Source: Azolla caroliniana
Lineage: Eukaryota > Plantae > Polypodiophyta
Reading direction: 5' to 3'
Assembly (NCBI GenBank): GCA_043228905.1
Contig: JBHGNT010000001.1
Span: 25,110,001-25,174,000, forward strand
DNA length: 64,000 bases
Shown: positions 7,113 through 45,279 of the stretch, piece after piece
Layout: each line of letters opens with the position of its first letter
Numbering within the stretch: the first letter of the stretch is position 1
Program-made: the position numbers and the translations under genes
The notes under the pieces: generated by a model
What the model saw: only the letters and a program-made list of their open reading frames with translations
Database searches by the model: none
What the model was told of the DNA's origin: nothing

Positions 7113-8100
7113 AGAAATTCGTTATCAAATTGATCGTGTAATCTCAACTTCTCTCTTTCCCAATCTATCTTAAGTACTTTCTCGCCAAAGCTTGTATCGA
7201 CTCTAAATCCTTCTGGTCCAGAACCCCGGCGGTTCCGCCTCACGATCTGCACGTAGTGATGGATCTTCACGACACCATCGCGGCCCGATTAACTTCCTGC
7301 CGGAGCTCGGCCATCCGTTCCTTATGCTCCGTTTCCAGCCGTTTGTAGTCCCGATGCAGGTGCTCAAAATCATCTGTCTTTTGCTTGAGCCGTACGTTGA
7401 TCTGTCGACGGGCCCGGTCCTCGCGGTCCTTCTGCTGGCGGAGCTCCTCCTTTAGCCTTTCAATTTCCGTTTCCGTCGTCTTCCGCAGCTTGTCCTTTTC
7501 TTGCAGCACTTTGTCTTTTTCCTCCCTTAGCCGGTCGTACGCTTTATGGCCTTTCCGGAGGCTCTCCTCTGCCCGGCGGAGGTTCTCAGCAGTATTCTTT
7601 AATTTAGTTCTGCCGATGTCTTCAATTCCCGTTCACGGCTCCTTAGCGCTTCTTGTGCGGCAAGTTCATCTCTCAATTCCGCAAGCTCTTGGGCTTGCGC
7701 CACATATCTCTCTGGAACGGTTTCTGTTGCCGGGCTCTTATTAGTATGTACAGGTTGGTCTGGTTCTTTATTCTGTACACTTTCCGGAGTCACCGATGCT
7801 TGGATCTGTGTTGCCGTTAAGGCCATTTTGGCCATTTTAACCGTGACCTGTTCCAAGTCTTTTTCAAGGCACCGGATTCTGGACGGCATCCGACGAACAG
7901 GCGTTCGGCAACTAGATAAATAAATGCGCGGATCATGTATCCGCTGTTTTGGCTTAATGGATGCATTCATTTACGAGGATGATGATGTTTAATAGGTAAA
8001 AGAAATGGAACGGTTTATCCGGCACAAATTCCTCATCAAAAGTGCATCGCACGTCCATCGCGATCCTCAATGGAAGTACATTTTCCAATGGAAAACCGAA

Positions 8101-8173
8101 GATCCTATGGCCCAATGGATAAGGCGCTGGTCTACGAAACCAGAGATTCTAGGTTCGATCCCTGGTGGGATCG
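8101..8173 (+). tRNA. tRNA-Arg(ACG) copy 1
   Basis: GATCCTA-TG-GCCC-AATGGATA-AGGC-G-CTGGT-CT ACG AA-ACCAG-AGATT-CTAGG-TTCGATC-CCTGG-TGGGATC-G. Full cloverleaf, A and B boxes, Arg identity A20/C35/G36. U6-G67 wobble variant. Confidence 0.92.
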
Positions 8174-8931
8174 ATTAGGATTAGGTTCCGCTTCTCGAGA
8201 ATCGGAATACAACGAGACTGTTGCGCAATCAATACACGCGTGGATCCCTTGGGGAAGGGATAACATCGCGTATTTGAGCGTAATCATCGATCACGACGAT
8301 GCCGTTCACATATTTCTAATGCGCATTCGCTCGAGGGAACATATGAACAATGCCTTTCTTGCTTACGCTCGCCGTGCTCCTGCCTGGCCTGGTTTGAATA
8401 CAAGCGAGTAGACGCAAGAATGTGATGACGCCCAGTCGTTGTATGATGTGTATTTGGACGTGGTCCTCAACAAGGATGACGTCGTTTGAAATTTAGAAAC
8501 AATCTACACGAAGGCCACCGCTAAGACGTCGCATGCGCGATACTCTTCATTTGGTTAGAGTAGAATGCGCGTATTCGAGATTCAACGATGCAAATTTACG
8601 TACGAGTGGAAGAACCTAGCGGCCGGTATCATGAGACGAGAACGGTATCTACACATCGGAGATTGACAGTTTGAGACGAAAACTCTTCTCGAAGGTCATT
8701 TGTATGGTCATGCATGCTTTTCTATGGATTGCATGCGTCACACCGCACACCTTTATCCGATAAACCCATTTAAGCGCATCTCCGTAATGTGGCGAGTAAT
8801 AGAATGGTAAGGTAAAGTGACAAGAGATCCCATGAAAAATACGATGATCAAGAAATATGATGAGAAATATGAGATCCTATCCGATCACGTGCGAGATCTT
8901 CATTCCTTTCACGTTTCGATGAATGGTCGAA

Positions 8932-9004
8932 GATCCTATGGCCTAATGGATAAGGCGTTGGTCTTCGAAACCAAAGATTCTAGGTTCGACCCCTAGTAGG
9001 ATCG
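8932..9004 (+). tRNA. tRNA-Arg(TCG) copy 1
   Basis: GATCCTA-TG-GCCT-AATGGATA-AGGC-G-TTGGT-CT TCG AA-ACCAA-AGATT-CTAGG-TTCGACC-CCTAG-TAGGATC-G. All stems Watson-Crick. Confidence 0.92.
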
Positions 9005-9280
9005 GTTTAGAATCGTGACCCTAGTGTACGTCGACATCAAGAACACGACGACCAAGGATCATTCACGGAGTCATAATGCGCATCCGTCTCGACCGTCTAG
9101 AAAATGCGCGGATCTTGTATCCGCCGTTTTGGCTTAATGGATGCATTCATTTACGAGGATGATGATGTTTAATAGGTAAAAGAAATGGAACGGTTTATCC
9201 GGCACAAATTCCTCATCAAAAGTGCATCGCACGTCCATCGCGATCCTCAATGGAAGTACATTTTCCAATGGAAAACCGAA

Positions 9281-9353
9281 GATCCTATGGCCCAATGGAT
9301 AAGGCGCTGGTCTACGAAACCAGAGATTCTAGGTTCGATCCCTGGTGGGATCG
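9281..9353 (+). tRNA. tRNA-Arg(ACG) copy 2
   Basis: As copy 1 (G67). Confidence 0.9.
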
Positions 9354-10111
9354 ATTAGGATTAGGTTCCGCTTCTCGAGAATCGGAATACAACGAGACTG
9401 TTGCGCAATCAATACACGCGTGGATCCCTTGGGGAAGGGATAACATCGCGTATTTGAGCGTAATCATCGATCACGACGATGCCGTTCACATATTTCTAAT
9501 GCGCATTCGCTCGAGGGAACATATGAACAATGCCTTTCTTGCTTACGCTCGCCGTGCTCCTGCCTGGCCTGGTTTGAATACAAGCGAGTAGACGCAAGAA
9601 TGTGATGACGCCCAGTCGTTGTATGATGTGTATTTGGACGTGGTCCTCAACAAGGATGACGTCGTTTGAAATTTAGAAACAATCTACACGAAGGCCACCG
9701 CTAAGACGTCGCATGCGCGATACTCTTCATTTGGTTAGAGTAGAGTGCGCGTATTCGAGATTCAACGATGCAAATTTACGTACGAGTGGAAGAACCTAGC
9801 GGCCGGTATCATGAGACGAGAACGGTATCTACACATCGGAGATTGACAGTTTGAGACGAAAACTCTTCTCGAAGGTCATTTGTATGGTCATGCATGCTTT
9901 TCTATGGATTGCATGCGTCACACCGCACACCTTTATCCGATAAACCCATTTAAGCGCATCTCCGTAATGTGGCGAGTAATAGAATGGTAAGGTAAAGTGA
10001 CAAGAGATCCCATGAAAAATACGATGATCAAGAAATATGATGAGAAATATGAGATCCTATCCGATCACGTGCGAGATCTTCATTCCTTTCACGTTTCGAT
10101 GAATGGTCGAA

Positions 10112-10184
10112 GATCCTATGGCCTAATGGATAAGGCGTTGGTCTTCGAAACCAAAGATTCTAGGTTCGACCCCTAGTAGGATCG
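10112..10184 (+). tRNA. tRNA-Arg(TCG) copy 2
   Basis: As copy 1. Confidence 0.9.
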
Positions 10185-10460
10185 GTTTAGAATCGTGACC
10201 CTAGTGTACGTCGACATCAAGAACACGACGACCAAGGATCATTCACGGAGTCATAATGCGCATCCGTCTCGACCGTCTAGAAAATGCGCGGATCTTGTAT
10301 CCGCCGTTTTGGCTTAATGGATGCATTCATTTACGAGGATGATGATGTTTAATAGGTAAAAGAAATGGAACGGTTTATCCGGCACAAATTCCTCATCAAA
10401 AGTGCATGGCACGTCCATCGCGATCCTCAATGGAAGTACATTTTCCAATGGAAAACCGAA

Positions 10461-10533
10461 GATCCTATGGCCCAATGGATAAGGCGCTGGTCTACGAAAC
10501 CAGAGATTCTAGGTTCGATCCCTGGTGGGATCG
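10461..10533 (+). tRNA. tRNA-Arg(ACG) copy 3
   Basis: As copy 1 (G67). Confidence 0.9.
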
Positions 10534-11291
10534 ATTAGGATTAGGTTCCGCTTCTCGAGAATCGGAATACAACGAGACTGTTGCGCAATCAATACACGCG
10601 TGGATCCCTTGGGGAAGGGATAACATCGCGTATTTGAGCGTAATCATCGATCACGACGATGCCGTTCACATATTTCTAATGCGCATTCGCTCGAGGGAAC
10701 ATATGAACAATGCCTTTCTTGCTTACGCTCGCCGTGCTCCTGCCTGGCCTGGTTTGAATACAAGCGAGTAGACGCAAGAATGTGATGACGCCCAGTCGTT
10801 GTATGATGTGTATTTGGACGTCGTCCTCAACAAGGATGACGTCGTTTGAAATTTAGAAACCATCTACACGAAGGCCACCGCTAAGACGTCGCATGCGCGA
10901 TACTCTTCATTTGGTTAGAGTAGAGTGCGCGTATTCGAGATTCAACGATGCAAATTTACGTACGAGTGGAAGAACCTAGCGGCCGGTATCATGAGACGAG
11001 AACGGTATCTACACATCGGAGATTGACAGTTTGAGACGAAAACTCTTCTCGAAGGTCATTTGTATGGTCATGCATGCTTTTCTATGGATTGCATGCGTCA
11101 CACCGCACACCTTTATCCGATAAACCCATTTAAGCGCATCTCCGTAATGTGGCGAGTAATAGAATGGTAAGGTAAAGTGACAAGAGATCCCATGAAAAAT
11201 ACGATGATCAAGAAATATGATGAGAAATATGAGATCCTATCCGATCACGTGCGAGATCTTCATTCCTTTCACGTTTCGATGAATGGTCGAA

Positions 11292-11364
11292 GATCCTATG
11301 GCCTAATGGATAAGGCGTTGGTCTTCGAAACCAAAGATTCTAGGTTCGACCCCTAGTAGGATCG
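11292..11364 (+). tRNA. tRNA-Arg(TCG) copy 3
   Basis: As copy 1. Confidence 0.9.
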
Positions 11365-11640
11365 GTTTAGAATCGTGACCCTAGTGTACGTCGACATCAA
11401 GAACACGACGACCAAGGATCATTCACGGAGTCATAATGCGCATCCGTCTCGACCGTCTAGAAAATGCGCGGATCTTGTATCCGCCGTTTTGGCTTAATGG
11501 ATGCATTCATTTACGAGGATGATGATGTTTAATAGGTAAAAGAAATGGAACGGTTTATCCGGCACAAATTCCTCATCAAAAGTGCATCGCACGTCCATCG
11601 CGATCCTCAATGGAAGTACATTTTCCAATGGAAAACCGAA

Positions 11641-11713
11641 GATCCTATGGCCAAATGGATAAGGCGCTGGTCTACGAAACCAGAGATTCTAGGTTCGATC
11701 CCTGGTGGGATCG
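11641..11713 (+). tRNA. tRNA-Arg(ACG) copy 4 (C13>A)
   Basis: G67 plus a private C13>A. Confidence 0.85.
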
Positions 11714-12471
11714 ATTAGGATTAGGTTCCGCTTCTCGAGAATCGAAATACAACGAGACTGTTGCGCAATCAATACACGCGTGGATCCCTTGGGGAAGGGA
11801 TAACATCGCGTATTTGAGCGTAATCATCGATCACGACGATGCCGTTCACATATTTCTAATGCGCATTCGCTCGAGGGAACATATGAACAATGCCTTTCTT
11901 GCTTACGCTCGCCGTGCTCCTGCCTGGCCTGGGTTGAATACAAGCGAGTAGACGCAAGAATGTGATGACGCCCAGTCGTTGTATGATGTGTATTTGGACG
12001 TGGTCCTCAACAAGGATGACGTCGTTTGAAATTTAGAAACCATCTACACGAAGGCCACCGCTAAGACGTCGCATGCGCGATACTCTTCATTTGGTTAGAG
12101 TAGAGTGCGCGTATTCGAGATTCAACGATGCAAATTTACGTACGAGTGGAAGAACCTAGCGGCCGGTATCATGAGACGAGAACGGTATCTACACATCGGA
12201 GATTGACAGTTTGAGACGAAAACTCTTCTCGAAGGTCATTTGTATGGTCATGCATGCTTTTCTATGGATTGCATGCGTCACACCGCACACCTTTATCCGA
12301 TAAACCCATTTAAGCGCATCTCCGTAATGTGGCGAGTAATAGAATGGTAAGGTAAAGTGACAAGAGATCCCATGAAAAATACGATGATCAAGAAATATGA
12401 TGAGAAATATGAGATCCTATCCGATCACGTGCGAGATCTTCATTCCTTTCACGTTTCGATGAATGGTCGAA

Positions 12472-12544
12472 GATCCTATGGCCTAATGGATAAGGCGTTG
12501 GTCTTCGAAACCAAAGATTCTAGGTTCGACCCCTAGTAGGATCG
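12472..12544 (+). tRNA. tRNA-Arg(TCG) copy 4
   Basis: As copy 1. Confidence 0.9.
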
Positions 12545-12820
12545 GTTTAGAATCGTGACCCTAGTGTACGTCGACATCAAGAACACGACGACCAAGGATC
12601 ATTCACGGAGTCATAATGCGCATCCGTCTCGACCGTCTAGAAAATGCGCGGATCTTGTATCCGCCGTTTTGGCTTAATGGATGCATTCATTTACGAGGAT
12701 GATGATGTTTAATAGGTAAAAGAAATGGAACGGTTTATCCGGCACAAATTCCTCATCAAAAGTGCATGGCACGTCCATCGCGATCCTCAATGGAAGTACA
12801 TTTTCCAATGGAAAACCGAA

Positions 12821-12893
12821 GATCCTATGGCCCAATGGATAAGGCGCTGGTCTACGAAACCAGAGATTCTAGGTTCGATCCCTGGTGGGATCG
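12821..12893 (+). tRNA. tRNA-Arg(ACG) copy 5
   Basis: G67 variant. Confidence 0.9.
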
Positions 12894-13651
12894 ATTAGGA
12901 TTAGGTTCCGCTTCTCGAGAATCGGAATACAACGAGACTGTTGCGCAATCAATACACGCGTGGATCCCTTGGGGAAGGGATAACATCGCGTATTTGAGCG
13001 TAATCATCGATCACGACGATGCCGTTCACATATTTCTAATGCGCATTCGCTCGAGGGAACATATGAACAATGCCTTTCTTGCTTACGCTCGCCGTGCTCC
13101 TGCCTGGCCTGGGTTGAATACAAGCGAGTAGACGCAAGAATGTGATGACGCCCAGTCGTTGTATGATGTGTATTTGGACGTGGTCCTCAACAAGGATGAC
13201 GTCGTTTGAAATTTAGAAACCATCTACACGAAGGCCACCGCTAAGACGTCGCATGCGCGATACTCTTCATTTGGTTAGAGTAGAGTGCGCGTATTCGAGA
13301 TTCAACGATGCAAATTTACGTACGAGTGGAAGAACCTAGCGGCCGGTATCATGAGACGAGAACGGTATCTACACATCGGAGATTGACAGTTTGAGACGAA
13401 AACTCTTCTCGAAGGTCATTTGTATGGTCATGCATGCTTTTCTATGGATTGCATGCGTCACACCGCACACCTTTATCCGATAAACCCATTTAAGCGCATC
13501 TCCGTAATGTGGCGAGTAATAGAATGGTAAGGTAAAGTGACAAGAGATCCCATGAAAAATACGATGATCAAGAAATATGATGAGAAATATGAGATCCTAT
13601 CCGATCACGTGCGAGATCTTCATTCCTTTCACGTTTCGATGAATGGTCGAA

Positions 13652-13724
13652 GATCCTATGGCCTAATGGATAAGGCGTTGGTCTTCGAAACCAAAGATTC
13701 TAGGTTCGACCCCTAGTAGGATCG
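13652..13724 (+). tRNA. tRNA-Arg(TCG) copy 5
   Basis: As copy 1. Confidence 0.9.
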
Positions 13725-14000
13725 GTTTAGAATCGTGACCCTAGTGTACGTCGACATCAAGAACACGACGACCAAGGATCATTCACGGAGTCATAATGCG
13801 CATCCGTCTCGACCGTCTAGAAAATGCGCGGATCTTGTATCCGCCGTTTTGGCTTAATGGATGCATTCATTTACGAGGATGATGATGTTTAATAGGTAAA
13901 AGAAATGGAACGGTTTATCCGGCACAAATTCCTCATCAAAAGTGCATCGCACGTCCATCGCGATCCTCAATGGAAGTACATTTTCCAATGGAAAACCGAA

Positions 14001-14073
14001 GATCCTATGGCCCAATGGATAAGGCGCTGGTCTACGAAACCAGAGATTCTAGGTTCGATCCCTGGTGGGATCG
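14001..14073 (+). tRNA. tRNA-Arg(ACG) copy 6
   Basis: G67 variant. Confidence 0.9.
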
Positions 14074-14831
14074 ATTAGGATTAGGTTCCGCTTCTCGAGA
14101 ATCGGAATACAACGAGACTGTTGCGCAATCAATACACGCGTGGATCCCTTGGGGAAGGGATAACATCGCGTATTTGAGCGTAATCATCGATCACGACGAT
14201 GCCGTTCACATATTTCTAATGCGCATTCGCTCGAGGGAACATATGAACAATGCCTTTCTTGCTTACGCTCGCCGTGCTCCTGCCTGGCCTGGGTTGAATA
14301 CAAGCGAGTAGACGCAAGAATGTGATGACGCCCAGTCGTTGTATGATGTGTATTTGGACGTGGTCCTCAACAAGGATGACGTCGTTTGAAATTTAGAAAC
14401 CATCTACACGAAGGCCACCGCTAAGACGTCGCATGCGCGATACTCTTCATTTGGTTAGAGTAGAGTGCGCGTATTCGAGATTCAACGATGCAAATTTACG
14501 TACGAGTGGAAGAACCTAGCGGCCGGTATCATGAGACGAGAACGGTATCTACACATCGGAGATTGACAGTTTGAGACGAAAACTCTTCTCGAAGGTCATT
14601 TGTATGGTCATGCATGCTTTTCTATGGATTGCATGCGTCACACCGCACACCTTTATCCGATAAACCCATTTAAGCGCATCTCCGTAATGTGGCGAGTAAT
14701 AGAATGGTAAGGTAAAGTGACAAGAGATCCCATGAAAAATACGATGATCAAGAAATATGATGAGAAATATGAGATCCTATCCGATCACGTGCGAGATCTT
14801 CATTCCTTTCACGTTTCGATGAATGGTCGAA

Positions 14832-14904
14832 GATCCTATGGCCTAATGGATAAGGCGTTGGTCTTCGAAACCAAAGATTCTAGGTTCGACCCCTAGTAGG
14901 ATCG
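14832..14904 (+). tRNA. tRNA-Arg(TCG) copy 6
   Basis: As copy 1. Confidence 0.9.
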
Positions 14905-15180
14905 GTTTAGAATCGTGACCCTAGTGTACGTCGACATCAAGAACACGACGACCAAGGATCATTCACGGAGTCATAATGCGCATCCGTCTCGACCGTCTAG
15001 AAAATGCGCGGATCTTGTATCCGCCGTTTTGGCTTAATGGATGCATTCATTTACGAGGATGATGATGTTTAATAGGTAAAAGAAATGGAACGGTTTATCC
15101 GGCACAAATTCCTCATCAAAAGTGCATCGCACGTCCATCGCGATCCTCAATGGAAGTACATTTTCCAATGGAAAACCGAA

Positions 15181-15253
15181 GATCCTATGGCCCAATGGAT
15201 AAGGCGCTGGTCTACGAAACCAGAGATTCTAGGTTCGATCCCTGGTGGGATCG
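15181..15253 (+). tRNA. tRNA-Arg(ACG) copy 7
   Basis: G67 variant. Confidence 0.9.
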
Positions 15254-16011
15254 ATTAGGATTAGGTTCCGCTTCTCGAGAATCGGAATACAACGAGACTG
15301 TTGCGCAATCAATACACGCGTGGATCCCTTGGGGAAGGGATAACATCGCGTATTTGAGCGTAATCATCGATCACGACGATGCCGTTCACATATTTCTAAT
15401 GCGCATTCGCTCGAGGGAACATATGAACAATGCCTTTCTTGCTTACGCTCGCCGTGCTCCTGCCTGGCCTGGGTTGAATACAAGCGAGTAGACGCAAGAC
15501 TGTGATGACGCCCAGTCGTTGTATGATGTGTATTTGGACGTGGTCCTCAACAAGGATGACGTCGTTTGAAATTTAGAAACCATCTACACGAAGGCCACCG
15601 CTAAGACGTCGCATGCGCGATACTCTTCATTTGGTTAGAGTAGAGTGCGCGTATTCGAGATTCAACGATGCAAATTTACGTACGAGTGGAAGAACCTAGC
15701 GGCCGGTATCATGAGACGAGAACGGTATCTACACATCGGAGATTGACAGTTTGAGACGAAAACTCTTCTCGAAGGTCATTTGTATGGTCATGCATGCTTT
15801 TCTATGGATTGCATGCGTCACACCGCACACCTTTATCCGATAAACCCATTTAAGCGCATCTCCGTAATGTGGCGAGTAATAGAATGGTAAGGTAAAGTGA
15901 CAAGAGATCCCATGAAAAATACGATGATCAAGAAATATGATGAGAAATATGAGATCCTATCCGATCACGTGCGAGATCTTCATTCCTTTCACGTTTCGAT
16001 GAATGGTCGAA

Positions 16012-16084
16012 GATCCTATGGCCTAATGGATAAGGCGTTGGTCTTCGAAACCAAAGATTCTAGGTTCGACCCCTAGTAGGATCG
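16012..16084 (+). tRNA. tRNA-Arg(TCG) copy 7
   Basis: As copy 1. Confidence 0.9.
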
Positions 16085-16360
16085 GTTTAGAATCGTGACC
16101 CTAGTGTACGTCGACATCAAGAACACGACGACCAAGGATCATTCACGGAGTCATAATGCGCATCCGTCTCGACCGTCTAGAAAATGCGCGGATCTTGTAT
16201 CCGCCGTTTTGGCTTAATGGATGCATTCATTTACGAGGATGATGATGTTTAATAGGTAAAAGAAATGGAACGGTTTATCCGGCACAAATTCCTCATCAAA
16301 AGTGCATCGCACGTCCATCGCGATCCTCAATGGAAGTACATTTTCCAATGGAAAACCGAA

Positions 16361-16433
16361 GATCCTATGGCCCAATGGATAAGGCGCTGGTCTACGAAAC
16401 CAGAGATTCTAGGTTCGATCCCTGGTGGGATCG
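16361..16433 (+). tRNA. tRNA-Arg(ACG) copy 8
   Basis: G67 variant. Confidence 0.9.
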
Positions 16434-17191
16434 ATTAGGATTAGGTTCCGCTTCTCGAGAATCGGAATACAACGAGACTGTTGCGCAATCAATACACGCG
16501 TGGATCCCTTGGGGAAGGGATAACATCGCGTATTTGAGCGTAATCATCGATCACGACGATGCCGTTCACATATTTCTAATGCGCATTCGCTCGAGGGAAC
16601 ATATGAACAATGCCTTTCTTGCTTACGCTCGCCGTGCTCCTGCCTGGCCTGGGTTGAATACAAGCGAGTAGACGCAAGAATGTGATGACGCCCAGTCGTT
16701 GTATGATGTGTATTTGGACGTGGTCCTCAACAAGGATGACGTCGTTTGAAATTTAGAAACCATCTACACGAAGGCCACCGCTAAGACGTCGCATGCGCGA
16801 TACTCTTCATTTGGTTAGAGTAGAGTGCGCGTATTCGAGATTCAACGATGCAAATTTACGTACGAGTGGAAGAACCTAGCGGCCGGTATCATGAGACGAG
16901 AACGGTATCTACACATCGGAGATTGACAGTTTGAGACGAAAACTCTTCTCGAAGGTCATTTGTATGGTCATGCATGCTTTTCTATGGATTGCATGCGTCA
17001 CACCGCACACCTTTATCCGATAAACCCATTTAAGCGCATCTCCGTAATGTGGCGAGTAATAGAATGGTAAGGTAAAGTGACAAGAGATCCCATGAAAAAT
17101 ACGATGATCAAGAAATATGATGAGAAATATGAGATCCTATCCGATCACGTGCGAGATCTTCATTCCTTTCACGTTTCGATGAATGGTCGAA

Positions 17192-17264
17192 GATCCTATG
17201 GCCTAATGGATAAGGCGTTGGTCTTCGAAACCAAAGATTCTAGGTTCGACCCCTAGTAGGATCG
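17192..17264 (+). tRNA. tRNA-Arg(TCG) copy 8
   Basis: As copy 1. Confidence 0.9.
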
Positions 17265-17540
17265 GTTTAGAATCGTGACCCTAGTGTACGTCGACATCAA
17301 GAACACGACGACCAAGGATCATTCACGGAGTCATAATGCGCATCCGTCTCGACCGTCTAGAAAATGCGCGGATCTTGTATCCGCCGTTTTGGCTTAATGG
17401 ATGCATTCATTTACGAGGATGATGATGTTTAATAGGTAAAAGAAATGGAACGGTTTATCCGGCACAAATTCCTCATCAAAAGTGCATGGCACGTCCATCG
17501 CGATCCTCAATGGAAGTACATTTTCCAATGGAAAACCGAA

Positions 17541-17613
17541 GATCCTATGGCCCAATGGATAAGGCGCTGGTCTACGAAACCAGAGATTCTAGGTTCGATC
17601 CCTGGTGGGATCG
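17541..17613 (+). tRNA. tRNA-Arg(ACG) copy 9
   Basis: Last G67 copy. Confidence 0.9.
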
Positions 17614-18793: not shown

Positions 18794-19524
18794 ATTAGGA
18801 TTAGGTTCCGCTTCTCGAGAATCGGAATACAACGAGACTGTTGCGCAATCAATACACGCGTGGATCCCTTGGGGAAGGGATAACATCGCGTATTTGAGCG
18901 TAATCATCGATCACGACGATGCCGTTCACATATTTCTAATGCGCATTCGCTCGAGGGAACATATGAACAATGCCTTTCTTGCTTACGCTCGCCGTGCTCC
19001 TGCCTGGCCTGGTTTGAATACAAGCGAGTAGACGCAAGAATGTGATGACGCCCAGTCGTTGTATGATGTGTATTTGGACGTGGTCCTCAACAAGGATGAC
19101 GTCGTTTGAAATTTAGAAACCATCTACACGAAGGCCACCGCTAAGACGTCGCATGCGCGATACTCTTCATTTGGTTAGAGTAGAATGCGCGTATTCGAGA
19201 TTCAACGATGCAAATTTACGTACGAGTGGAAGAACCTAGCGGCCGGTATCATGAGACGACAGTTTGAGACGAAAACTCTTCTCGAAGGTCATTTGTATGG
19301 TCATGCATGCTTTTCTATGGATTGCATGCGTCACACCGCACACCTTTATCCGATAAACCCATTTAAGCGCATCTCCGTAATGTGGCGAGTAATAGAATGG
19401 TAAGGTAAAGTGACAAGAGATCCCATGAAAAATACGATGATCAAGAAATATGATGAGAAATATGAGATCCTATCCGATCACGTGCGAGATCTTCATTCCT
19501 TTCACGTTTCGATGAATGGTCGAA

Positions 19525-19597: not shown

Positions 19598-19873
19598 GTT
19601 TAGAATCGTGACCCTAGTGTACGTCGACATCAAGAACACGACGACCAAGGATCATTCACGGAGTCATAATGCGCATCCGTCTCGACCGTCTAGAAAATGC
19701 GCGGATCTTGTATCCGCTGTTTTGGCTTAATGGATGCATTCATTTACGAGGATGATGATGTTTAATAGGTAAAAGAAATGGAACGGTTTATCCGGCACAA
19801 ATTCCTCATCAAAAGTGCATCGCACGTCCATCGCGATCCTCAATGGAAGTACATTTTCCAATGGAAAACCGAA

Positions 19874-19946
19874 GATCCTATGGCCCAATGGATAAGGCGC
19901 TGGTCTACGAAACCAGAGATTCTAGGTTCGATCCCTGGTAGGATCG
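19874..19946 (+). tRNA. tRNA-Arg(ACG) copy 11
   Basis: As copy 10. Confidence 0.9.
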
Positions 19947-20704
19947 ATTAGGATTAGGTTCCGCTTCTCGAGAATCGGAATACAACGAGACTGTTGCGCA
20001 ATCAATACACGCGTGGATCCCTTGGGGAAGGGATAACATCGCGTATTTGAGCGTAATCATCGATCACGACGATGCCGTTCACATATTTCTAATGCGCATT
20101 CGCTCGAGGGAACATATGAACAATGCCTTTCTTGCTTACGCTCGCCGTGCTCCTGCCTGGCCTGGTTTGAATACAAGCGAGTAGACGCAAGAATGTGATG
20201 ACGCCCAGTCGTTGTATGATGTGTATTTGGACGTGGTCCTCAACAAGGATGACGTCGTTTGAAATTTAGAAACCATCTACACGAAGGCCACCGCTAAGAC
20301 GTCGCATGCGCGATACTCTTCATTTGGTTAGAGTAGAATGCGCGTATTCGAGATTCAACGATGCAAATTTACGTACGAGTGGAAGAACCTAGCGGCCGGT
20401 ATCATGAGACGAGAACGGTATCTACACATCGGAGATTGACAGTTTGAGACGAAAACTCTTCTCGAAGGTCATTTGTATGGTCATGCATGCTTTTCTATGG
20501 ATTGCATGCGTCACACCGCACACCTTTATCCGATAAACCCATTTAAGCGCATCTCCGTAATGTGGCGAGTAATAGAATGGTAAGGTAAAGTGACAAGAGA
20601 TCCCATGAAAAATACGATGATCAAGAAATATGATGAGAAATATGAGATCCTATCCGATCACGTGCGAGATCTTCATTCCTTTCACGTTTCGATGAATGGT
20701 CGAA

Positions 20705-20777
20705 GATCCTATGGCCTAATGGATAAGGCGTTGGTCTTCGAAACCAAAGATTCTAGGTTCGACCCCTAGTAGGATCG
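20705..20777 (+). tRNA. tRNA-Arg(TCG) copy 11
   Basis: As copy 1. Confidence 0.9.
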
Positions 20778-21053
20778 GTTTAGAATCGTGACCCTAGTGT
20801 ACGTCGACATCAAGAACACGACGACCAAGGATCATTCACGGAGTCATAATGCGCATCCGTCTCGACCGTCTAGAAAATGCGCGGATCTTGTATCCGCTGT
20901 TTTGGCTTAATGGATGCATTCATTTACGAGGATGATGATGTTTAATAGGTAAAAGAAATGGAACGGTTTATCCGGCACAAATTCCTCATCAAAAGTGCAT
21001 CGCACGTCCATCGCGATCCTCAATGGAAGTACATTTTCCAATGGAAAACCGAA

Positions 21054-36044: not shown

Positions 36045-36117
36045 GATCCTATGGCCTAATGGATAAGGCGTTGGTCTTCGAAACCAAAGATTCTAGGTTC
36101 GACCCCTAGTAGGATCG
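36045..36117 (+). tRNA. tRNA-Arg(TCG) copy 24
   Basis: As copy 1. Confidence 0.9.
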
Positions 36118-36393: not shown

Positions 36394-36466
36394 GATCCTA
36401 TGGCCCAATGGATAAGGCGCTGGTCTACGAAACCAGAGATTCTAGGTTCGATCCCTGGTAGGATCG
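36394..36466 (+). tRNA. tRNA-Arg(ACG) copy 25
   Basis: As copy 10. Confidence 0.9.
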
Positions 36467-37224: not shown

Positions 37225-37297
37225 GATCCTATGGCCTAATGGATAAGGCGTTGGTCTTCGAAACCAAAGATTCTAGGTTCGACCCCTAGTAGGATCG
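37225..37297 (+). tRNA. tRNA-Arg(TCG) copy 25
   Basis: As copy 1. Confidence 0.9.
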
Positions 37298-37573
37298 GTT
37301 TAGAATCGCGACCCTAGTGTACGTCGACATCAAGAACACGACGACCAAGGATCATTCACGGAGTCATAATGCGCATCCGTCTCGACCGTCTAGAAAATGC
37401 GCGGATCTTGTATCCGCTGTTTTGGCTTAATGGATGCATTCATTTACGAGGATGATGATGTTTAATAGGTAAAAGAAATGGAACGGTTTATCCGGCACAA
37501 ATTCCTCATCAAAAGTGCATCGCACGTCCATCGCGATCCTCAATGGAAGTACATTTTCCAATGGAAAACCGAA

Positions 37574-37646
37574 GATCCTATGGCCCAATGGATAAGGCGC
37601 TGGTCTACGAAACCAGAGATTCTAGGTTCGATCCCTGGTAGGATCG
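37574..37646 (+). tRNA. tRNA-Arg(ACG) copy 26
   Basis: As copy 10. Confidence 0.9.
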
Positions 37647-38404
37647 ATTAGGATTAGGTTCCGCTTCTCGAGAATCGGAATACAACGAGACTGTTGCGCA
37701 ATCAATACACGCGTGGATCCCTTGGGGAAGGGATAACATCGCGTATTTGAGCGTAATCATCGATCACGACGATGCCGTTCACATATTTCTAATGCGCATT
37801 CGCTCGAGGGAACATATGAACAATGCCTTTCTTGCTTACGCTCGCCGTGCTCCTGCCTGGCCTGGTTTGAATACAAGCGAGTAGACGCAAGAATGTGATG
37901 ACGCCCAGTCGTTGTATGATGTGTATTTGGACGTGGTCCTCAACAAGGATGACGTCGTTTGAAATTTAGAAACCATCTACACGAAGGCCACCGCTAAGAC
38001 GTCGCATGCGCGATACTCTTCATTTGGTTAGAGTAGAATGCGCGTATTCGAGATTCAACGATGCAAATTTACGTACGAGTGGAAGAACCTAGCGGCCGGT
38101 ATCATGAGACGAGAACGGTATCTACACATCGGAGATTGACAGTTTGAGACGAAAACTCTTCTCGAAGGTCATTTGTATGGTCATGCATGCTTTTCTATGG
38201 ATTGCATGCGTCACACCGCACACCTTTATCCGATAAACCCATTTAAGCGCATCTCCGTAATGTGGCGAGTAATAGAATGGTAAGGTAAAGTGACAAGAGA
38301 TCCCATGAAAAATACGATGATCAAGAAATATGATGAGAAATATGAGATCCTATCCGATCACGTGCGAGATCTTCATTCCTTTCACGTTTCGATGAATGGT
38401 CGAA

Positions 38405-38477
38405 GATCCTATGGCCTAATGGATAAGGCGTTGGTCTTCGAAACCAAAGATTCTAGGTTCGACCCCTAGTAGGATCG
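38405..38477 (+). tRNA. tRNA-Arg(TCG) copy 26
   Basis: As copy 1. Confidence 0.9.
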
Positions 38478-38753
38478 GTTTAGAATCGTGACCCTAGTGT
38501 ACGTCGACATCAAGAACACGACGACCAAGGATCATTCACGGAGTCATAATGCGCATCCGTCTCGACCGTCTAGAAAATGCGCGGATCTTGTATCCGCTGT
38601 TTTGGCTTAATGGATGCATTCATTTACGAGGATGATGATGTTTAATAGGTAAAAGAAATGGAACGGTTTATCCGGCACAAATTCCTCATCAAAAGTGCAT
38701 CGCACGTCCATCGCGATCCTCAATGGAAGTACATTTTCCAATGGAAAACCGAA

Positions 38754-38826
38754 GATCCTATGGCCCAATGGATAAGGCGCTGGTCTACGAAACCAGAGAT
38801 TCTAGGTTCGATCCCTGGTAGGATCG
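38754..38826 (+). tRNA. tRNA-Arg(ACG) copy 27
   Basis: As copy 10. Confidence 0.9.
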
Positions 38827-39584
38827 ATTAGGATTAGGTTCCGCTTCTCGAGAATCGGAATACAACGAGACTGTTGCGCAATCAATACACGCGTGGATCC
38901 CTTGGGGAAGGGATAACATCGCGTATTTGAGCGTAATCATCGATCACGACGATGCCGTTCACATATTTCTAATGCGCATTCGCTCGAGGGAACATATGAA
39001 CAATGCCTTTCTTGCTTACGCTCGCCGTGCTCCTGCCTGGCCTGGTTTGAATACAAGCGAGTAGACGCAAGAATGTGATGACGCCCAGTCGTTGTATGAT
39101 GTGTATTTGGACGTGGTCCTCAACAAGGATGACGTCGTTTGAAATTTAGAAACCATCTACACGAAGGCCACCGCTAAGACGTCGCATGCGCGATACTCTT
39201 CATTTGGTTAGAGTAGAATGCGCGTATTCGAGATTCAACGATGCAAATTTACGTACGAGTGGAAGAACCTAGCGGCCGGTATCATGAGACGAGAACGGTA
39301 TCTACACATCGGAGATTGACAGTTTGAGACGAAAACTCTTCTCGAAGGTCATTTGTATGGTCATGCATGCTTTTCTATGGATTGCATGCGTCACACCGCA
39401 CACCTTTATCCGATAAACCCATTTAAGCGCATCTCCGTAATGTGGCGAGTAATAGAATGGTAAGGTAAAGTGACAAGAGATCCCATGAAAAATACGATGA
39501 TCAAGAAATATGATGAGAAATATGAGATCCTATCCGATCACGTGCGAGATCTTCATTCCTTTCACGTTTCGATGAATGGTCGAA

Positions 39585-39657
39585 GATCCTATGGCCTAAT
39601 GGATAAGGCGTTGGTCTTCGAAACCAAAGATTCTAGGTTCGACCCCTAGTAGGATCG
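39585..39657 (+). tRNA. tRNA-Arg(TCG) copy 27
   Basis: As copy 1. Confidence 0.9.
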
Positions 39658-39933
39658 GTTTAGAATCGCGACCCTAGTGTACGTCGACATCAAGAACACG
39701 ACGACCAAGGATCATTCACGGAGTCATAATGCGCATCCGTCTCGACCGTCTAGAAAATGCGCGGATCTTGTATCCGCTGTTTTGGCTTAATGGATGCATT
39801 CATTTACGAGGATGATGATGTTTAATAGGTAAAAGAAATGGAACGGTTTATCCGGCACAAATTCCTCATCAAAAGTGCATCGCACGTCCATCGCGATCCT
39901 CAATGGAAGTACATTTTCCAATGGAAAACCGAA

Positions 39934-40006
39934 GATCCTATGGCCCAATGGATAAGGCGCTGGTCTACGAAACCAGAGATTCTAGGTTCGATCCCTGGTA
40001 GGATCG
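39934..40006 (+). tRNA. tRNA-Arg(ACG) copy 28
   Basis: As copy 10. Confidence 0.9.
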
Positions 40007-40764
40007 ATTAGGATTAGGTTCCGCTTCTCGAGAATCGGAATACAACGAGACTGTTGCGCAATCAATACACGCGTGGATCCCTTGGGGAAGGGATAACATC
40101 GCGTATTTGAGCGTAATCATCGATCACGACGATGCCGTTCACATATTTCTAATGCGCATTCGCTCGAGGGAACATATGAACAATGCCTTTCTTGCTTACG
40201 CTCGCCGTGCTCCTGCCTGGCCTGGTTTGAATACAAGCGAGTAGACGCAAGAATGTGATGACGCCCAGTCGTTGTATGATGTGTATTTGGACGTGGTCCT
40301 CAACAAGGATGACGTCGTTTGAAATTTAGAAACCATCTACACGAAGGCCACCGCTAAGACGTCGCATGCGCGATACTCTTCATTTGGTTAGAGTAGAATG
40401 CGCGTATTCGAGATTCAACGATGCAAATTTACGTACGAGTGGAAGAACCTAGCGGCCGGTATCATGAGACGAGAACGGTATCTACACATCGGAGATTGAC
40501 AGTTTGAGACGAAAACTCTTCTCGAAGGTCATTTGTATGGTCATGCATGCTTTTCTATGGATTGCATGCGTCACACCGCACACCTTTATCCGATAAACCC
40601 ATTTAAGCGCATCTCCGTAATGTGGCGAGTAATAGAATGGTAAGGTAAAGTGACAAGAGATCCCATGAAAAATACGATGATCAAGAAATATGATGAGAAA
40701 TATGAGATCCTATCCGATCACGTGCGAGATCTTCATTCCTTTCACGTTTCGATGAATGGTCGAA

Positions 40765-40837
40765 GATCCTATGGCCTAATGGATAAGGCGTTGGTCTTCG
40801 AAACCAAAGATTCTAGGTTCGACCCCTAGTAGGATCG
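40765..40837 (+). tRNA. tRNA-Arg(TCG) copy 28
   Basis: As copy 1. Confidence 0.9.
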
Positions 40838-41113
40838 GTTTAGAATCGCGACCCTAGTGTACGTCGACATCAAGAACACGACGACCAAGGATCATTCACG
40901 GAGTCATAATGCGCATCCGTCTCGACCGTCTAGAAAATGCGCGGATCTTGTATCCGCTGTTTTGGCTTAATGGATGCATTCATTTACGAGGATGATGATG
41001 TTTAATAGGTAAAAGAAATGGAACGGTTTATCCGGCACAAATTCCTCATCAAAAGTGCATCGCACGTCCATCGCGATCCTCAATGGAAGTACATTTTCCA
41101 ATGGAAAACCGAA

Positions 41114-41186
41114 GATCCTATGGCCCAATGGATAAGGCGCTGGTCTACGAAACCAGAGATTCTAGGTTCGATCCCTGGTAGGATCG
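41114..41186 (+). tRNA. tRNA-Arg(ACG) copy 29
   Basis: As copy 10. Confidence 0.9.
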
Positions 41187-41944
41187 ATTAGGATTAGGTT
41201 CCGCTTCTCGAGAATCGGAATACAACGAGACTGTTGCGCAATCAATACACGCGTGGATCCCTTGGGGAAGGGATAACATCGCGTATTTGAGCGTAATCAT
41301 CGATCACGACGATGCCGTTCACATATTTCTAATGCGCATTCGCTCGAGGGAACATATGAACAATGCCTTTCTTGCTTACGCTCGCCGTGCTCCTGCCTGG
41401 CCTGGTTTGAATACAAGCGAGTAGACGCAAGAATGTGATGACGCCCAGTCGTTGTATGATGTGTATTTGGACGTGGTCCTCAACAAGGATGACGTCGTTT
41501 GAAATTTAGAAACCATCTACACGAAGGCCACCGCTAAGACGTCGCATGCGCGATACTCTTCATTTGGTTAGAGTAGAATGCGCGTATTCGAGATTCAACG
41601 ATGCAAATTTACGTACGAGTGGAAGAACCTAGCGGCCGGTATCATGAGACGAGAACGGTATCTACACATCGGAGATTGACAGTTTGAGACGAAAACTCTT
41701 CTCGAAGGTCATTTGTATGGTCATGCATGCTTTTCTATGGATTGCATGCGTCACACCGCACACCTTTATCCGATAAACCCATTTAAGCGCATCTCCGTAA
41801 TGTGGCGAGTAATAGAATGGTAAGGTAAAGTGACAAGAGATCCCATGAAAAATACGATGATCAAGAAATATGATGAGAAATATGAGATCCTATCCGATCA
41901 CGTGCGAGATCTTCATTCCTTTCACGTTTCGATGAATGGTCGAA

Positions 41945-42017
41945 GATCCTATGGCCTAATGGATAAGGCGTTGGTCTTCGAAACCAAAGATTCTAGGTTC
42001 GACCCCTAGTAGGATCG
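41945..42017 (+). tRNA. tRNA-Arg(TCG) copy 29
   Basis: As copy 1. Confidence 0.9.
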
Positions 42018-42293
42018 GTTTAGAATCGCGACCCTAGTGTACGTCGACATCAAGAACACGACGACCAAGGATCATTCACGGAGTCATAATGCGCATCCGT
42101 CTCGACCGTCTAGAAAATGCGCGGATCTTGTATCCGCTGTTTTGGCTTAATGGATGCATTCATTTACGAGGATGATGATGTTTAATAGGTAAAAGAAATG
42201 GAACGGTTTATCCGGCACAAATTCCTCATCAAAAGTGCATCGCACGTCCATCGCGATCCTCAATGGAAGTACATTTTCCAATGGAAAACCGAA

Positions 42294-42366
42294 GATCCTA
42301 TGGCCCAATGGATAAGGCGCTGGTCTACGAAACCAGAGATTCTAGGTTCGATCCCTGGTAGGATCG
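42294..42366 (+). tRNA. tRNA-Arg(ACG) copy 30
   Basis: As copy 10. Confidence 0.9.
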
Positions 42367-43124
42367 ATTAGGATTAGGTTCCGCTTCTCGAGAATCGGAA
42401 TACAACGAGACTGTTGCGCAATCAATACACGCGTGGATCCCTTGGGGAAGGGATAACATCGCGTATTTGAGCGTAATCATCGATCACGACGATGCCGTTC
42501 ACATATTTCTAATGCGCATTCGCTCGAGGGAACATATGAACAATGCCTTTCTTGCTTACGCTCGCCGTGCTCCTGCCTGGCCTGGTTTGAATACAAGCGA
42601 GTAGACGCAAGAATGTGATGACGCCCAGTCGTTGTATGATGTGTATTTGGACGTGGTCCTCAACAAGGATGACGTCGTTTGAAATTTAGAAACCATCTAC
42701 ACGAAGGCCACCGCTAAGACGTCGCATGCGCGATACTCTTCATTTGGTTAGAGTAGAATGCGCGTATTCGAGATTCAACGATGCAAATTTACGTACGAGT
42801 GGAAGAACCTAGCGGCCGGTATCATGAGACGAGAACGGTATCTACACATCGGAGATTGACAGTTTGAGACGAAAACTCTTCTCGAAGGTCATTTGTATGG
42901 TCATGCATGCTTTTCTATGGATTGCATGCGTCACACCGCACACCTTTATCCGATAAACCCATTTAAGCGCATCTCCGTAATGTGGCGAGTAATAGAATGG
43001 TAAGGTAAAGTGACAAGAGATCCCATGAAAAATACGATGATCAAGAAATATGATGAGAAATATGAGATCCTATCCGATCACGTGCGAGATCTTCATTCCT
43101 TTCACGTTTCGATGAATGGTCGAA

Positions 43125-43197
43125 GATCCTATGGCCTAATGGATAAGGCGTTGGTCTTCGAAACCAAAGATTCTAGGTTCGACCCCTAGTAGGATCG
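43125..43197 (+). tRNA. tRNA-Arg(TCG) copy 30
   Basis: As copy 1. Confidence 0.9.
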
Positions 43198-43473
43198 GTT
43201 TAGAATCGCGACCCTAGTGTACGTCGACATCAAGAACACGACGACCAAGGATCATTCACGGAGTCATAATGCGCATCCGTCTCGACCGTCTAGAAAATGC
43301 GCGGATCTTGTATCCGCTGTTTTGGCTTAATGGATGCATTCATTTACGAGGATGATGATGTTTAATAGGTAAAAGAAATGGAACGGTTTATCCGGCACAA
43401 ATTCCTCATCAAAAGTGCATCGCACGTCCATCGCGATCCTCAATGGAAGTACATTTTCCAATGGAAAACCGAA

Positions 43474-43546
43474 GATCCTATGGCCCAATGGATAAGGCGC
43501 TGGTCTACGAAACCAGAGATTCTAGGTTCGATCCCTGGTAGGATCG
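43474..43546 (+). tRNA. tRNA-Arg(ACG) copy 31
   Basis: As copy 10. Confidence 0.9.
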
Positions 43547-44304
43547 ATTAGGATTAGGTTCCGCTTCTCGAGAATCGGAATACAACGAGACTGTTGCGCA
43601 ATCAATACACGCGTGGATCCCTTGGGGAAGGGATAACATCGCGTATTTGAGCGTAATCATCGATCACGACGATGCCGTTCACATATTTCTAATGCGCATT
43701 CGCTCGAGGGAACATATGAACAATGCCTTTCTTGCTTACGCTCGCCGTGCTCCTGCCTGGCCTGGTTTGAATACAAGCGAGTAGACGCAAGAATGTGATG
43801 ACGCCCAGTCGTTGTATGATGTGTATTTGGACGTGGTCCTCAACAAGGATGACGTCGTTTGAAATTTAGAAACCATCTACACGAAGGCCACCGCTAAGAC
43901 GTCGCATGCGCGATACTCTTCATTTGGTTAGAGTAGAATGCGCGTATTCGAGATTCAACGATGCAAATTTACGTACGAGTGGAAGAACCTAGCGGCCGGT
44001 ATCATGAGACGAGAACGGTATCTACACATCGGAGATTGACAGTTTGAGACGAAAACTCTTCTCGAAGGTCATTTGTATGGTCATGCATGCTTTTCTATGG
44101 ATTGCATGCGTCACACCGCACACCTTTATCCGATAAACCCATTTAAGCGCATCTCCGTAATGTGGCGAGTAATAGAATGGTAAGGTAAAGTGACAAGAGA
44201 TCCCATGAAAAATACGATGATCAAGAAATATGATGAGAAATATGAGATCCTATCCGATCACGTGCGAGATCTTCATTCCTTTCACGTTTCGATGAATGGT
44301 CGAA

Positions 44305-44377
44305 GATCCTATGGCCTAATGGATAAGGCGTTGGTCTTCGAAACCAAAGATTCTAGGTTCGACCCCTAGTAGGATCG
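44305..44377 (+). tRNA. tRNA-Arg(TCG) copy 31
   Basis: As copy 1. Confidence 0.9.
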
Positions 44378-45279
44378 GTTTAGAATCGCGACCCTAGTGT
44401 ACGTCGACATCAAGAACACGACGACCAAGGATCATTCACGGAGTCATAATGCGCATCCGTCTCGACCGTCTAGAAAATGCGCGGATCTTGTATCCGCTGT
44501 TTTGGCTTAATGGATGCATTCATTTACGAGGATGATGATGTTTAATAGGTAAAAGAAATGGAACGGTTTATCCGGCACAAATTCCTCATCAAAAGTAGGT
44601 TATCCGGCAATCATGCATTAGGTTAGTAGTTGATGTTAAATTTCATGTTAAATTTCTGCTAGATATGTTACTTCCAATGTTGCAATCCAAGGATACACGA
44701 GACCCATTATAGAAGTAGGGCATTATAATATAGAGAGAGAGAGAGAGAGAGATGTTATGTTAGTAAATCAACTTCACTAGCTTTGCATTTCACACCGGTG
44801 AAGGTGATGCATGAGTTTGGGCTTGTCTTTTAATTTCTATTTTAAAAGAAACTTTTTTGGCCTAACCTCGGGCGTTCTCCAGTGGACAAGACATCGGCCT
44901 CGTCCAGCACAACGTGTTTCGAATATTTGTAGGAGTTACAATTCCTCGCTCGGGGGTCAGAATCAAGATCGAAATAATCCATCGTGATCCTCAAGGCAAA
45001 GTCTCATGTTTACGAACCAAGTTTCCTAGAGAGACCATTCAGTGTTTCATTATATGTCAAATTTGCATAACTTGGTCTCCGAAGCTCATAATTTTGACCC
45101 GAAACTTCTGTCGTGCTACTTGGTTGACCAGGAAAATAAGGATTTGCACAAGATAATTGAAATATAAATTAAATTAAATTTTTATAAGTAATAATAAGTT
45201 CATGAGGGTGTGTAAATACAATGAGAAGATCCTCGGCTTTGTTACATGGAGTGATCAAGATACAAAAAAAATGGATAGG

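What the first reader, a model, noticed from the sequence alone, without database searches (positions are those of the whole stretch)
7922..44596. 36.7-kb rDNA-like tandem array of paired tRNA-Arg(ACG)+tRNA-Arg(TCG) genes
Seen: 31 near-identical 1180-bp units hold 62 intact same-strand tRNA-Arg genes, with 4 older copies at the margin. Established: ICG reads CGU/C/A and UCG reads CGA/G, so each unit covers the whole CGN box. Plant tRNA tandem arrays are known (Arabidopsis Tyr-Tyr-Ser and Pro clusters), but I do not recall an Arg ACG/TCG pair array. Inference: a concertedly evolving Pol III locus. It could supply tRNA-Arg dosage, or act as a TFIIIC-bound chromatin boundary between TE-rich DNA and the PPR/TMK genes.
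Basis: partly seen in the sequence, partly recalled or inferred. Interest (0 to 1): 0.85.

Follow-up and report, generated by a model that had tools for sequence, protein, structure and literature searches.

The report
Fern arginine tRNA gene tandem array
A plant genome, likely a fern's, carries 31 head-to-tail copies of a 1.2-kb unit with two arginine tRNA genes that related organisms keep almost letter for letter while the spacers drift, so the array likely works like ribosomal DNA, as a self-homogenising bulk store of arginine tRNA genes.

Summary
Confirmed: 31 units (30 of 1180 bp, one of 1153), 62 same-strand tRNA-Arg genes, 4 margin copies. The host is likely a fern. New here: (1) the ACG and TCG genes share one body (67/73 identical, one compensatory pair), pointing to an anticodon switch. 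(2) Relatives carry the same repeat with other unit lengths; 1 of 145 tRNA sites differ against 171 of 762 spacer sites, so the tRNAs are under purifying selection. (3) 15 of 16 changes separating the array from its margin copies are AT-to-GC, as in GC-biased conversion. (4) Head-to-tail joints occur in DNA runs of three studies at roughly 25-165 times flank depth: not an assembly artefact. No T4 terminator lies within 120 nt of either gene. Expression is untested. Best reading (0.6): an rDNA-like, concertedly evolving Pol III array supplying tRNA-Arg(ICG/UCG); main rival (0.27): a mostly silenced reserve, as in Arabidopsis. The boundary idea has no support. Plant tRNA arrays are known; an Arg pair array was not in the surveys I read. 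The scan had not noted it on other DNA.

The parts
7922..44596 (+). Main array: 31 head-to-tail units plus a 122-bp partial unit at the right end; GC 45.7%, CpG observed/expected 1.43
19695..20874 (+). Modal 1180-bp unit (unit 11): 179 bp lead, tRNA-Arg(ACG), 758-bp spacer, tRNA-Arg(TCG), 97 bp tail; no other RNA family reaches its gathering score; the one spacer frame scanned (7986-8408) has no Pfam match
19874..19946 (+). tRNA-Arg(ACG) gene, example of 31; cloverleaf, A and B boxes, A20, U20a, C35, G36, A38, G73; first T4 545 nt downstream
   Evidence: identity elements from PMC9976931 passages
20705..20777 (+). tRNA-Arg(TCG) gene, example of 31 identical copies; differs from the ACG gene at 13, 27/43 (compensatory), 34, 59, 64; first T4 123 nt downstream, at a T4-T5 tract also present in relatives
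8101..17613 (+). Block of nine ACG genes with the derived G67 allele (T6-G67 wobble), usable as an array-specific marker in tRNA-seq
19258..19284 (.). Approximate site of the 27-bp spacer deletion in unit 10 (unit columns 717-743 are missing)
1..898 (+). Stranded margin copy A (88% identical to the unit) with the ACG gene at 106-178; runs off the window edge
2962..4854 (+). Stranded margin copies B and C (93-96% identical) with genes at 3612 (TCG), 3950 (ACG), 4782 (TCG)
899..2961 (-). Broken LTR-retrotransposon fragment (integrase core; likely copia-type) interrupting the margin copies
   Evidence: rve, E 8e-7, below the curated cut-off
4855..7921 (-). Retroelement-like insert between margin and main array; its LTR-like end starts 1 base after the 4782 gene
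   Evidence: no Pfam retroelement match

Best explanation
This is a tandem array of paired tRNA-Arg(ACG) and tRNA-Arg(TCG) genes, shared with related organisms, that likely works like 5S or ribosomal DNA: RNA polymerase III would transcribe some of the copies from their internal promoters to supply arginine tRNA for CGN codons. Shown: the array, its homogeneity, the conservation of the tRNA bodies against drifting spacers, and the AT-to-GC bias of its fixed changes. Inferred history: one tRNA-Arg gene duplicated and one copy switched anticodon (direction unknown); the pair became the repeat unit before the related lineages split; unequal exchange and GC-biased gene conversion have since kept the central copies uniform, while copies cut off by retroelements decay towards AT. 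Inferred function: TFIIIC binds the A and B boxes, Pol III runs on to distant or weak T tracts, and long 3' trailers are removed by tRNase Z; after A34-to-I34 editing and U34 modification the two tRNAs would read CGU/C/A and CGA/(G) (general decoding rules, from my own knowledge). Probably only part of the copies are active at a time.
For: Selection on the whole tRNA: 7 of 7 full-length TCG genes in six related contigs are 73/73 identical to the window's, and 6 of 6 ACG genes are 71-72/73, while the long spacer is 522/727 identical; 1/145 tRNA sites against 171/762 spacer sites differ, Fisher p 1.6e-13. The ACG/TCG differences keep or improve pairing and those at 13, 27/43, 34 and 59 persist in L002 and L008. 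All arginine identity elements listed in PMC9976931 are present. Concerted evolution: mean 2.85 differences per 1180 bp, in neighbouring blocks; relatives have their own unit lengths (928 bp, 812 bp, about 1430 bp). GC bias: at 16 of 786 sites all covering margin copies differ from the array; the outgroup sides with the margins in 14 and with the array in 0, and 15 of 16 are AT-to-GC in the array; margin-specific changes are 33 GC-to-AT against 10 AT-to-GC. Head-to-tail joints in DNA contigs of X2, X6 and X9. 8-9 T in the first 25 nt downstream matches the ~8 reported for non-flowering plants (PMC13578239 passages); human tRNA genes with distant T4 are transcribed with long trailers (PMC3141230 passages).
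Against: No expression data. First T4 is 545 nt (ACG) and 123 nt (TCG) downstream; the T5-T7 tract that margin copies have behind the ACG gene reads TTTCT in the main array, a motif with under 10% termination in human extracts. No CAA at -10 to -3 in either main-array gene. Arabidopsis clusters with intact promoters are methylated and silent (PMC7544208 abstract), and the Arabidopsis array's copy number looks neutral (PMC2886086 passages). The two flanking genes use CGN for only 21 of 62 Arg codons (two genes only). Four of the six related contigs (L003, L008, L010, L012) are 98.5-99.9% alike and count as one locus. Gene conversion from active dispersed copies could keep silent copies intact. 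In run X21 the related ACG family shows many CpG-type changes, including at the anticodon, so such families also hold decaying copies.
Confidence: 0.6

Rival explanations
1. Silenced surplus, as in Arabidopsis: the array is methylated heterochromatin whose copy number drifts; the tRNA bodies stay intact through conversion with active dispersed copies or through use in a few cell types.
For: Arabidopsis clusters are silent and methylated; the Ser-Tyr-Tyr cluster is reactivated only in root-cap cells (PMC13437025 passages). Weak termination and no CAA. Depth ratios differ about five-fold between X2 and X6. Retroelements at the margin.
Against: CpG observed/expected is 1.43 in the unit against 0.47 in the right flank, and both GC-to-AT variants in the array are singletons; GC-biased conversion could, however, mask methylation decay. 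Near-perfect conservation of two distinct bodies across about 25% spacer divergence needs steady selection or isoacceptor-specific conversion.
Confidence: 0.27
2. Chromatin boundary: TFIIIC bound to the array shields the PPR and TMK genes from transposon-rich chromatin, and this is the selected function.
For: 62 A/B box pairs lie between a retroelement-rich margin and two intact genes. tRNA genes act as barriers in yeast and animals (own knowledge).
Against: Acceptor stem, anticodon arm and identity bases are conserved as strictly as the boxes. High-depth repeats also lie at 45190-46570 on the gene side. The family has several junction types at high depth, so it is probably not tied to this one border; no related contig showed similarity to the right flank.
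Confidence: 0.05
3. Retroelement link: the array supplies primer tRNA, or 3' tRNA fragments, for the tRNA-Arg-primed Gypsy elements noted elsewhere in this genome.
For: Earlier unreviewed notes describe Gypsy elements with tRNA-Arg sites; one such site lies at 5292-5309 here.
Against: That site does not match the 3' ends of the array's tRNAs, and no site complementary to them (TGG plus 12 bases, up to 2 mismatches) occurs in the window or the 12 loci. The whole genome could not be searched.
Confidence: 0.05
4. Assembly artefact: a few real units were expanded by the assembler.
For: Units are nearly identical, several exactly; no listed contig piece bridged the right junction (only the longest pieces are shown).
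Against: Variants fall into ordered blocks with a private deletion. The exact head-to-tail joint has contig depth 2498, 525 and 527 in X2, X6, X9 against 15-18, 16-22 and 7.6 for near-identical flank contigs.
Confidence: 0.03

Closest known systems
Arabidopsis Ser-Tyr-Tyr array (27 units, 81 genes, about 40 kb; PMC2886086 passages, PMC7544208 abstract and section 13)
   Same: Multi-gene unit repeated head to tail, one strand, similar size, concerted evolution by unequal crossing-over, decayed copies at the ends.
   Different: Here one amino acid and two isoacceptors from one body; likely a fern; family seen at high depth with several unit types; terminators distant. Silencing is shown there, unknown here.
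Pro (AGG/TGG/CGG) homoclusters of dicots (PMC12652284 part 2 of 4; PMC13437025 passages and Table S3)
   Same: Neighbouring isoacceptors of one four-codon box, up to six differences at over 90% identity with compensatory stem changes; A34 plus U34 pair.
   Different: Pro clusters are irregularly spaced and smaller (at most 26 genes in the rows read); Arg is absent from that paper's list of amino acids with such pairs; here strict alternation in a fixed unit.
Maize Ile(AAT) 472-bp array and Ala arrays (PMC13437025 Table S3)
   Same: Regular, highly uniform tandem repeats of tRNA genes.
   Different: One gene per unit, a single anticodon in the Ile array, species-specific; here the pair is shared among related organisms.
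Entamoeba tRNA arrays (PMC2652664, abstract)
   Same: Units with several tRNA genes, uniform within an isolate, spacers diverged between species.
   Different: There nearly all tRNA genes are arrayed and E. histolytica spacers hold short tandem repeats; none found here.
5S and 45S rDNA (own knowledge; search listing)
   Same: Conserved gene and fast spacer, homogenisation, GC and CpG enrichment, orphan copies at the edges.
   Different: The genes are tRNAs with type-2 internal promoters; no rRNA match in the unit.

Membership tests
Plant tDNA homocluster (PMC13437025 definition) | At least 5 tRNA genes within 5 kb | tested here: met
   Two genes per 1180 bp over 36.7 kb
Plant tDNA homocluster (PMC13437025 definition) | Single isotype, same orientation, repeated module with uniform flanks | tested here: met
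   All Arg, all +, 13 variable sites and one deletion in 1180
Functional cytosolic tRNA-Arg gene | Cloverleaf with intact A and B boxes | tested here: met
Functional cytosolic tRNA-Arg gene | Arginine identity set A20, U20a, C35, G36, A38, G73 | tested here: met
   Read from the sequences against PMC9976931 passages
Functional cytosolic tRNA-Arg gene | Purifying selection relative to flanks | tested here: met
   1/145 against 171/762
Functional cytosolic tRNA-Arg gene | Oligo-T terminator close downstream and CAA at -10 to -3 (angiosperm pattern) | tested here: not met
   First T4 at +545 and +123; CAA at -15/-33 or absent. This pattern is weaker in non-flowering plants, so it lowers but does not exclude activity.
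Functional cytosolic tRNA-Arg gene | Mature, modified, CCA-bearing transcript | not testable with these tools
   Only contig-type runs were offered
Concertedly evolving tandem family (rDNA-like) | Units more alike within a genome than between lineages; edge copies diverged | tested here: met
   About 99.8% within, 72-78% spacer identity between, 88-96% at the margin
Arabidopsis-type silenced cluster | DNA methylation, repressive chromatin, no transcripts | not testable with these tools
   Indirect only: CpG o/e 1.43
Entamoeba-type array | Short tandem repeats in the spacers | tested here: not met
   No Tandem Repeats Finder row between 7922 and 44596
tRNA-derived SINE | Degenerate tRNA head with a tail, dispersed copies (features recalled) | tested here: not met
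   Complete conserved tRNAs in head-to-tail order, no A-rich or simple-repeat tail

The most novel reading that the evidence does not exclude
In this fern lineage the CGN-reading arginine tRNAs come mainly from an rDNA-like repeat family of hundreds or more copies, in which a UCG gene remoulded from the ACG body has taken over from the separate UCG family of other plants, and GC-biased homogenisation is eroding the array's own terminators. Such families could explain part of the extreme, unexplained tRNA gene counts reported for a fern (7,848 in Azolla filiculoides; PMC13437025 Table S1).
Probability: 0.3. Interest if true: 0.7.

Novelty: new variant of a known kind. Interest (0 to 1): 0.52.

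Why it matters
Land-plant tRNA genes are described as mostly dispersed, with a few Pro, Ser-Tyr, Ile, Ala and Gln clusters, and whether clusters are adaptive or by-products is stated as open (PMC13578239 passages). This array adds a new isotype and probably a new lineage, and it comes with built-in tests: a cross-lineage selection signal, a marker allele (G67) for array-specific expression, and stranded margin copies that act as an internal control for GC-biased conversion. It also shows an isoacceptor pair of common origin kept distinct inside one homogenising unit, and offers a concrete lead on inflated fern tRNA gene counts.

Tried and rejected
No whole genome is held, so genes inside versus outside the array could not be counted. 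No RNA holder was listed; laying three same-label runs of guessed or unknown type gave nothing for X22 and X24 and two depth-2 variant contigs for X23: no evidence either way on expression. Hidden RNA in the spacer: Rfam gave only tRNAs plus matches far below gathering scores. Hidden protein: the 141-aa frame across the ACG gene has no Pfam match. Bacterial or phage origin: 0 exact matches of the 32-base core in GTDB genomes and IMG/VR. Of 12 metagenome loci, L001 duplicates L002; L004, L006, L007, L009 and L011 share only the tRNA core and were left out of the spacer comparisons. Synteny with the PPR/TMK side: no blastn or tblastx hit in the related contigs, which are short. Leader-trailer pairing of pre-tRNAs: seen in the predicted fold of 1 of 4 sequences, z-scores -0.7 to -1.4, not supported. 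Primer-site link: none found. The tRNA sequence tables of PMC12652284 could not be read, so the claim that other plants' ACG and TCG genes are separate families rests on its Table 1 and on recall; those tables include one pteridophyte and may bear on novelty. In PMC6786969 the held supplements mention tRNA only in an orthogroup table; a supplementary text not held may describe fern tRNA-Arg expansions. Literature searches without a report of this array: (open-licence library only). I did not determine the species.
Full report
Observation. ARAGORN lists 66 tRNA-Arg genes, all on the + strand: 62 alternating ACG and TCG from 8101 to 44377 and four at 106, 3612, 3950 and 4782. Cutting the array at 7922 gives 30 units of 1180 bp and one of 1153 bp. 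The alignment has 13 variable single sites and one 27-bp deletion, mean 2.85 differences per pair, and the variants come in neighbouring blocks (units 1-9 or 2-10 against 11-31; a further allele in 11 of units 18-31).

Host. The PPR gene at 47175-49211 has its best named hits mostly in Adiantum and Ceratopteris (up to 53% identity), with some lycophyte and conifer rows; the gene at about 59600-63129 is an LRR receptor kinase. The host is likely a fern other than those two. No genome is held.

The two genes. Both fold as cloverleaves and score 60.0 and 69.4 bits on RF00005. They are 67/73 identical with the same acceptor stem; the differences are C13/T13, C27-G43/T27-A43 (compensatory), the wobble base, 59 and 64, and outside about 80 bases their flanks are unrelated. 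Both carry A20, U20a, C35, G36, A38 and G73, the arginine identity set (PMC9976931, passages). Across 50 plants, ACG and TCG Arg genes are enriched in different sequence clusters (PMC12652284, Table 1 passage), so a shared body points to an anticodon switch or remoulding in this lineage. The direction is unknown, and the same D- and anticodon-arm core with TCG also occurs in unrelated loci (L004, L006, L007, L009, L011), so the core itself is old. Flanking signals are weak: no CAA at -10 to -3, first T4 at +545 (ACG) and +123 (TCG), 9 and 8 T in the first 25 nt. About 8 T is the reported norm for non-flowering plants (PMC13578239, passages), and human tRNA genes with distant terminators are transcribed with long trailers (PMC3141230, passages).

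Relatives. An exact search for the TCG core in metagenome contigs gave 12 loci. Seven loci (six contigs) carry the same repeat; five share only the tRNA core. In the six contigs, 7 of 7 full-length TCG genes are identical to the window's and 6 of 6 ACG genes differ at one or two sites, while the long spacer is 522/727 identical. Against an outgroup consensus, 1 of 145 tRNA sites and 171 of 762 spacer sites differ (p 1.6e-13). Four of the six contigs are near-copies of one locus, so there are about three independent unit types. Unit length and order vary: 928-bp TCG-ACG units, an 812-bp ACG-only step, about 1430 bp in L005. A T4-T5 tract 109-123 nt behind the TCG gene is kept in the window, L002, L003, L005, L008 and L010, a candidate terminator.

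Sequencing runs. 20 of 24 listed runs hold part of the unit, 9 with half or more of its words, none on record as RNA. I laid 8 of the 24. In X2, X6 (organism A) and X9 (organism B), from three studies, a contig runs over the head-to-tail joint at depth 2498, 525 and 527, against 15-18, 16-22 and 7.6 for near-identical flank contigs: roughly 140-165, 24-32 and 70 times; further junction variants have similar depths. The tool warns that depth is no copy number, so these are rough; they exclude a few-copy artefact and suggest more units than these 31 and variation between samples. X17 (organism D) covers almost only the tRNA bins, at summed depth above 10,000, with loose ends that match L002's flanks by eye, and its PPR-like contig has 26 differences in 487 bases at depth 4. 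X21 (organism F) has 690 contigs on the tRNA bins only, the eight listed pieces with 7-10 differences, other flanks and many CpG-type changes (no single-copy control in that call). The family is therefore old, amplified, and partly decaying in at least one relative.

How it evolves. The margin copies are 88-96% identical to the unit and are cut by retroelements. At 16 of 786 sites covered by two or more margin copies and the outgroup, the margins agree and differ from the array; the outgroup sides with the margins in 14, with the array in none, and 15 of the 16 are AT-to-GC in the array. Among the 13 segregating sites, my polarisation gives 8 AT-to-GC alleles in 1-29 copies and 2 GC-to-AT alleles, both singletons. 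Margin-specific changes run the other way, 33 GC-to-AT against 10. This is the pattern expected from GC-biased gene conversion in a homogenising array (interpretation from my own knowledge). It also accounts for CpG o/e of 1.43 without requiring unmethylated DNA, for the spread of the weaker G67 wobble pair, and for a T-to-C difference (unit site 395) that breaks the T5-T7 tract present in margin copies behind the ACG gene (the outgroup has a third base there, so its direction is less sure).

Function. Selection on acceptor stem, anticodon arm and identity bases is what a translated tRNA needs and more than a boundary or a satellite needs. I put 0.6 on an rDNA-like supply array with a share of active copies, 0.27 on a largely silenced reserve as in Arabidopsis (PMC7544208, abstract and section 13), 0.05 each on a boundary and a retroelement link, 0.03 on an artefact. 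Against the supply reading: weak termination, only 21 of 62 Arg codons in the two flanking genes are CGN, and copy number of the Arabidopsis array looks neutral (PMC2886086, passages). Earlier unreviewed notes on tRNA-Arg-primed Gypsy elements in this genome led me to test a primer link; the site at 5292-5309 does not match the array's tRNAs and no matching site was found in the window or loci.

Known and new. Tandem tRNA arrays in plants are known. [quoted passage not shown] Eight searches found no report of a fern Arg array. The scan's own notes hold nothing like it. Azolla filiculoides is reported with 7,848 tRNA genes, without a demonstrated cause; I did not establish that this window or the runs belong to that genus. 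Verdict: a real, selected, concertedly evolving tRNA-Arg array; a new variant of a known kind; interest 0.52.

Noticed in passing
window 4855-5309: An LTR-like end begins 1 base after the 3' end of the TCG gene at 4782; 2 bases beyond its inner edge lies a CCA-ending tRNA-tail copy (5292-5309, sense on the - strand), as in earlier unreviewed notes on Gypsy elements lacking a polypurine tract. It does not match the array's tRNAs.
   Followed up: partly
window about 6807-6884, - strand: A degenerate tRNA-like stretch with A-box and B-box matches and CCT at the anticodon position, next to GC-rich short repeats; not called by Rfam or by relaxed ARAGORN. Possibly a SINE head.
   Followed up: partly
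window 19948-19962 and the same place in every unit; L002, L005, L008: The 15 bases from +2 behind the ACG gene are identical in all five aligned rows although the spacer is about 25% diverged; they resemble telomere-type repeats. Role unknown.
   Followed up: partly
window 44571-44610 and 7905-7930: The right junction restarts with a near copy of 12 bases from 25 bases upstream, and the left junction shows microhomology with the adjoining element: signs of end-joining at the array edges.
   Followed up: no
L004, L006, L007, L009: Dense clusters of 8-19 eukaryote-type tRNA genes in 1-2.5 kb with repeated Ile(TAT)-Leu(TAA) pairs, resembling giant-virus tRNA clusters (label from recall); their Arg(TCG) gene shares the core of the array's genes.
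   Followed up: no
run X21 laid on window 43417-44596: A very deep family of related tRNA-Arg(ACG) copies with other flanks and many CpG-type changes, including in the anticodon: perhaps an ACG-dominated, partly dead sister array.
   Followed up: partly
window 46634-47063 and 63565-63983: Two unrelated tandem duplications, each with a 209-bp period, one just upstream of the PPR gene.
   Followed up: no
window 45190-46570: High-depth repeat DNA, including a likely LTR with a tRNA-Met-type primer site near 45481 (motif recalled), lies between the array and the PPR gene.
   Followed up: no
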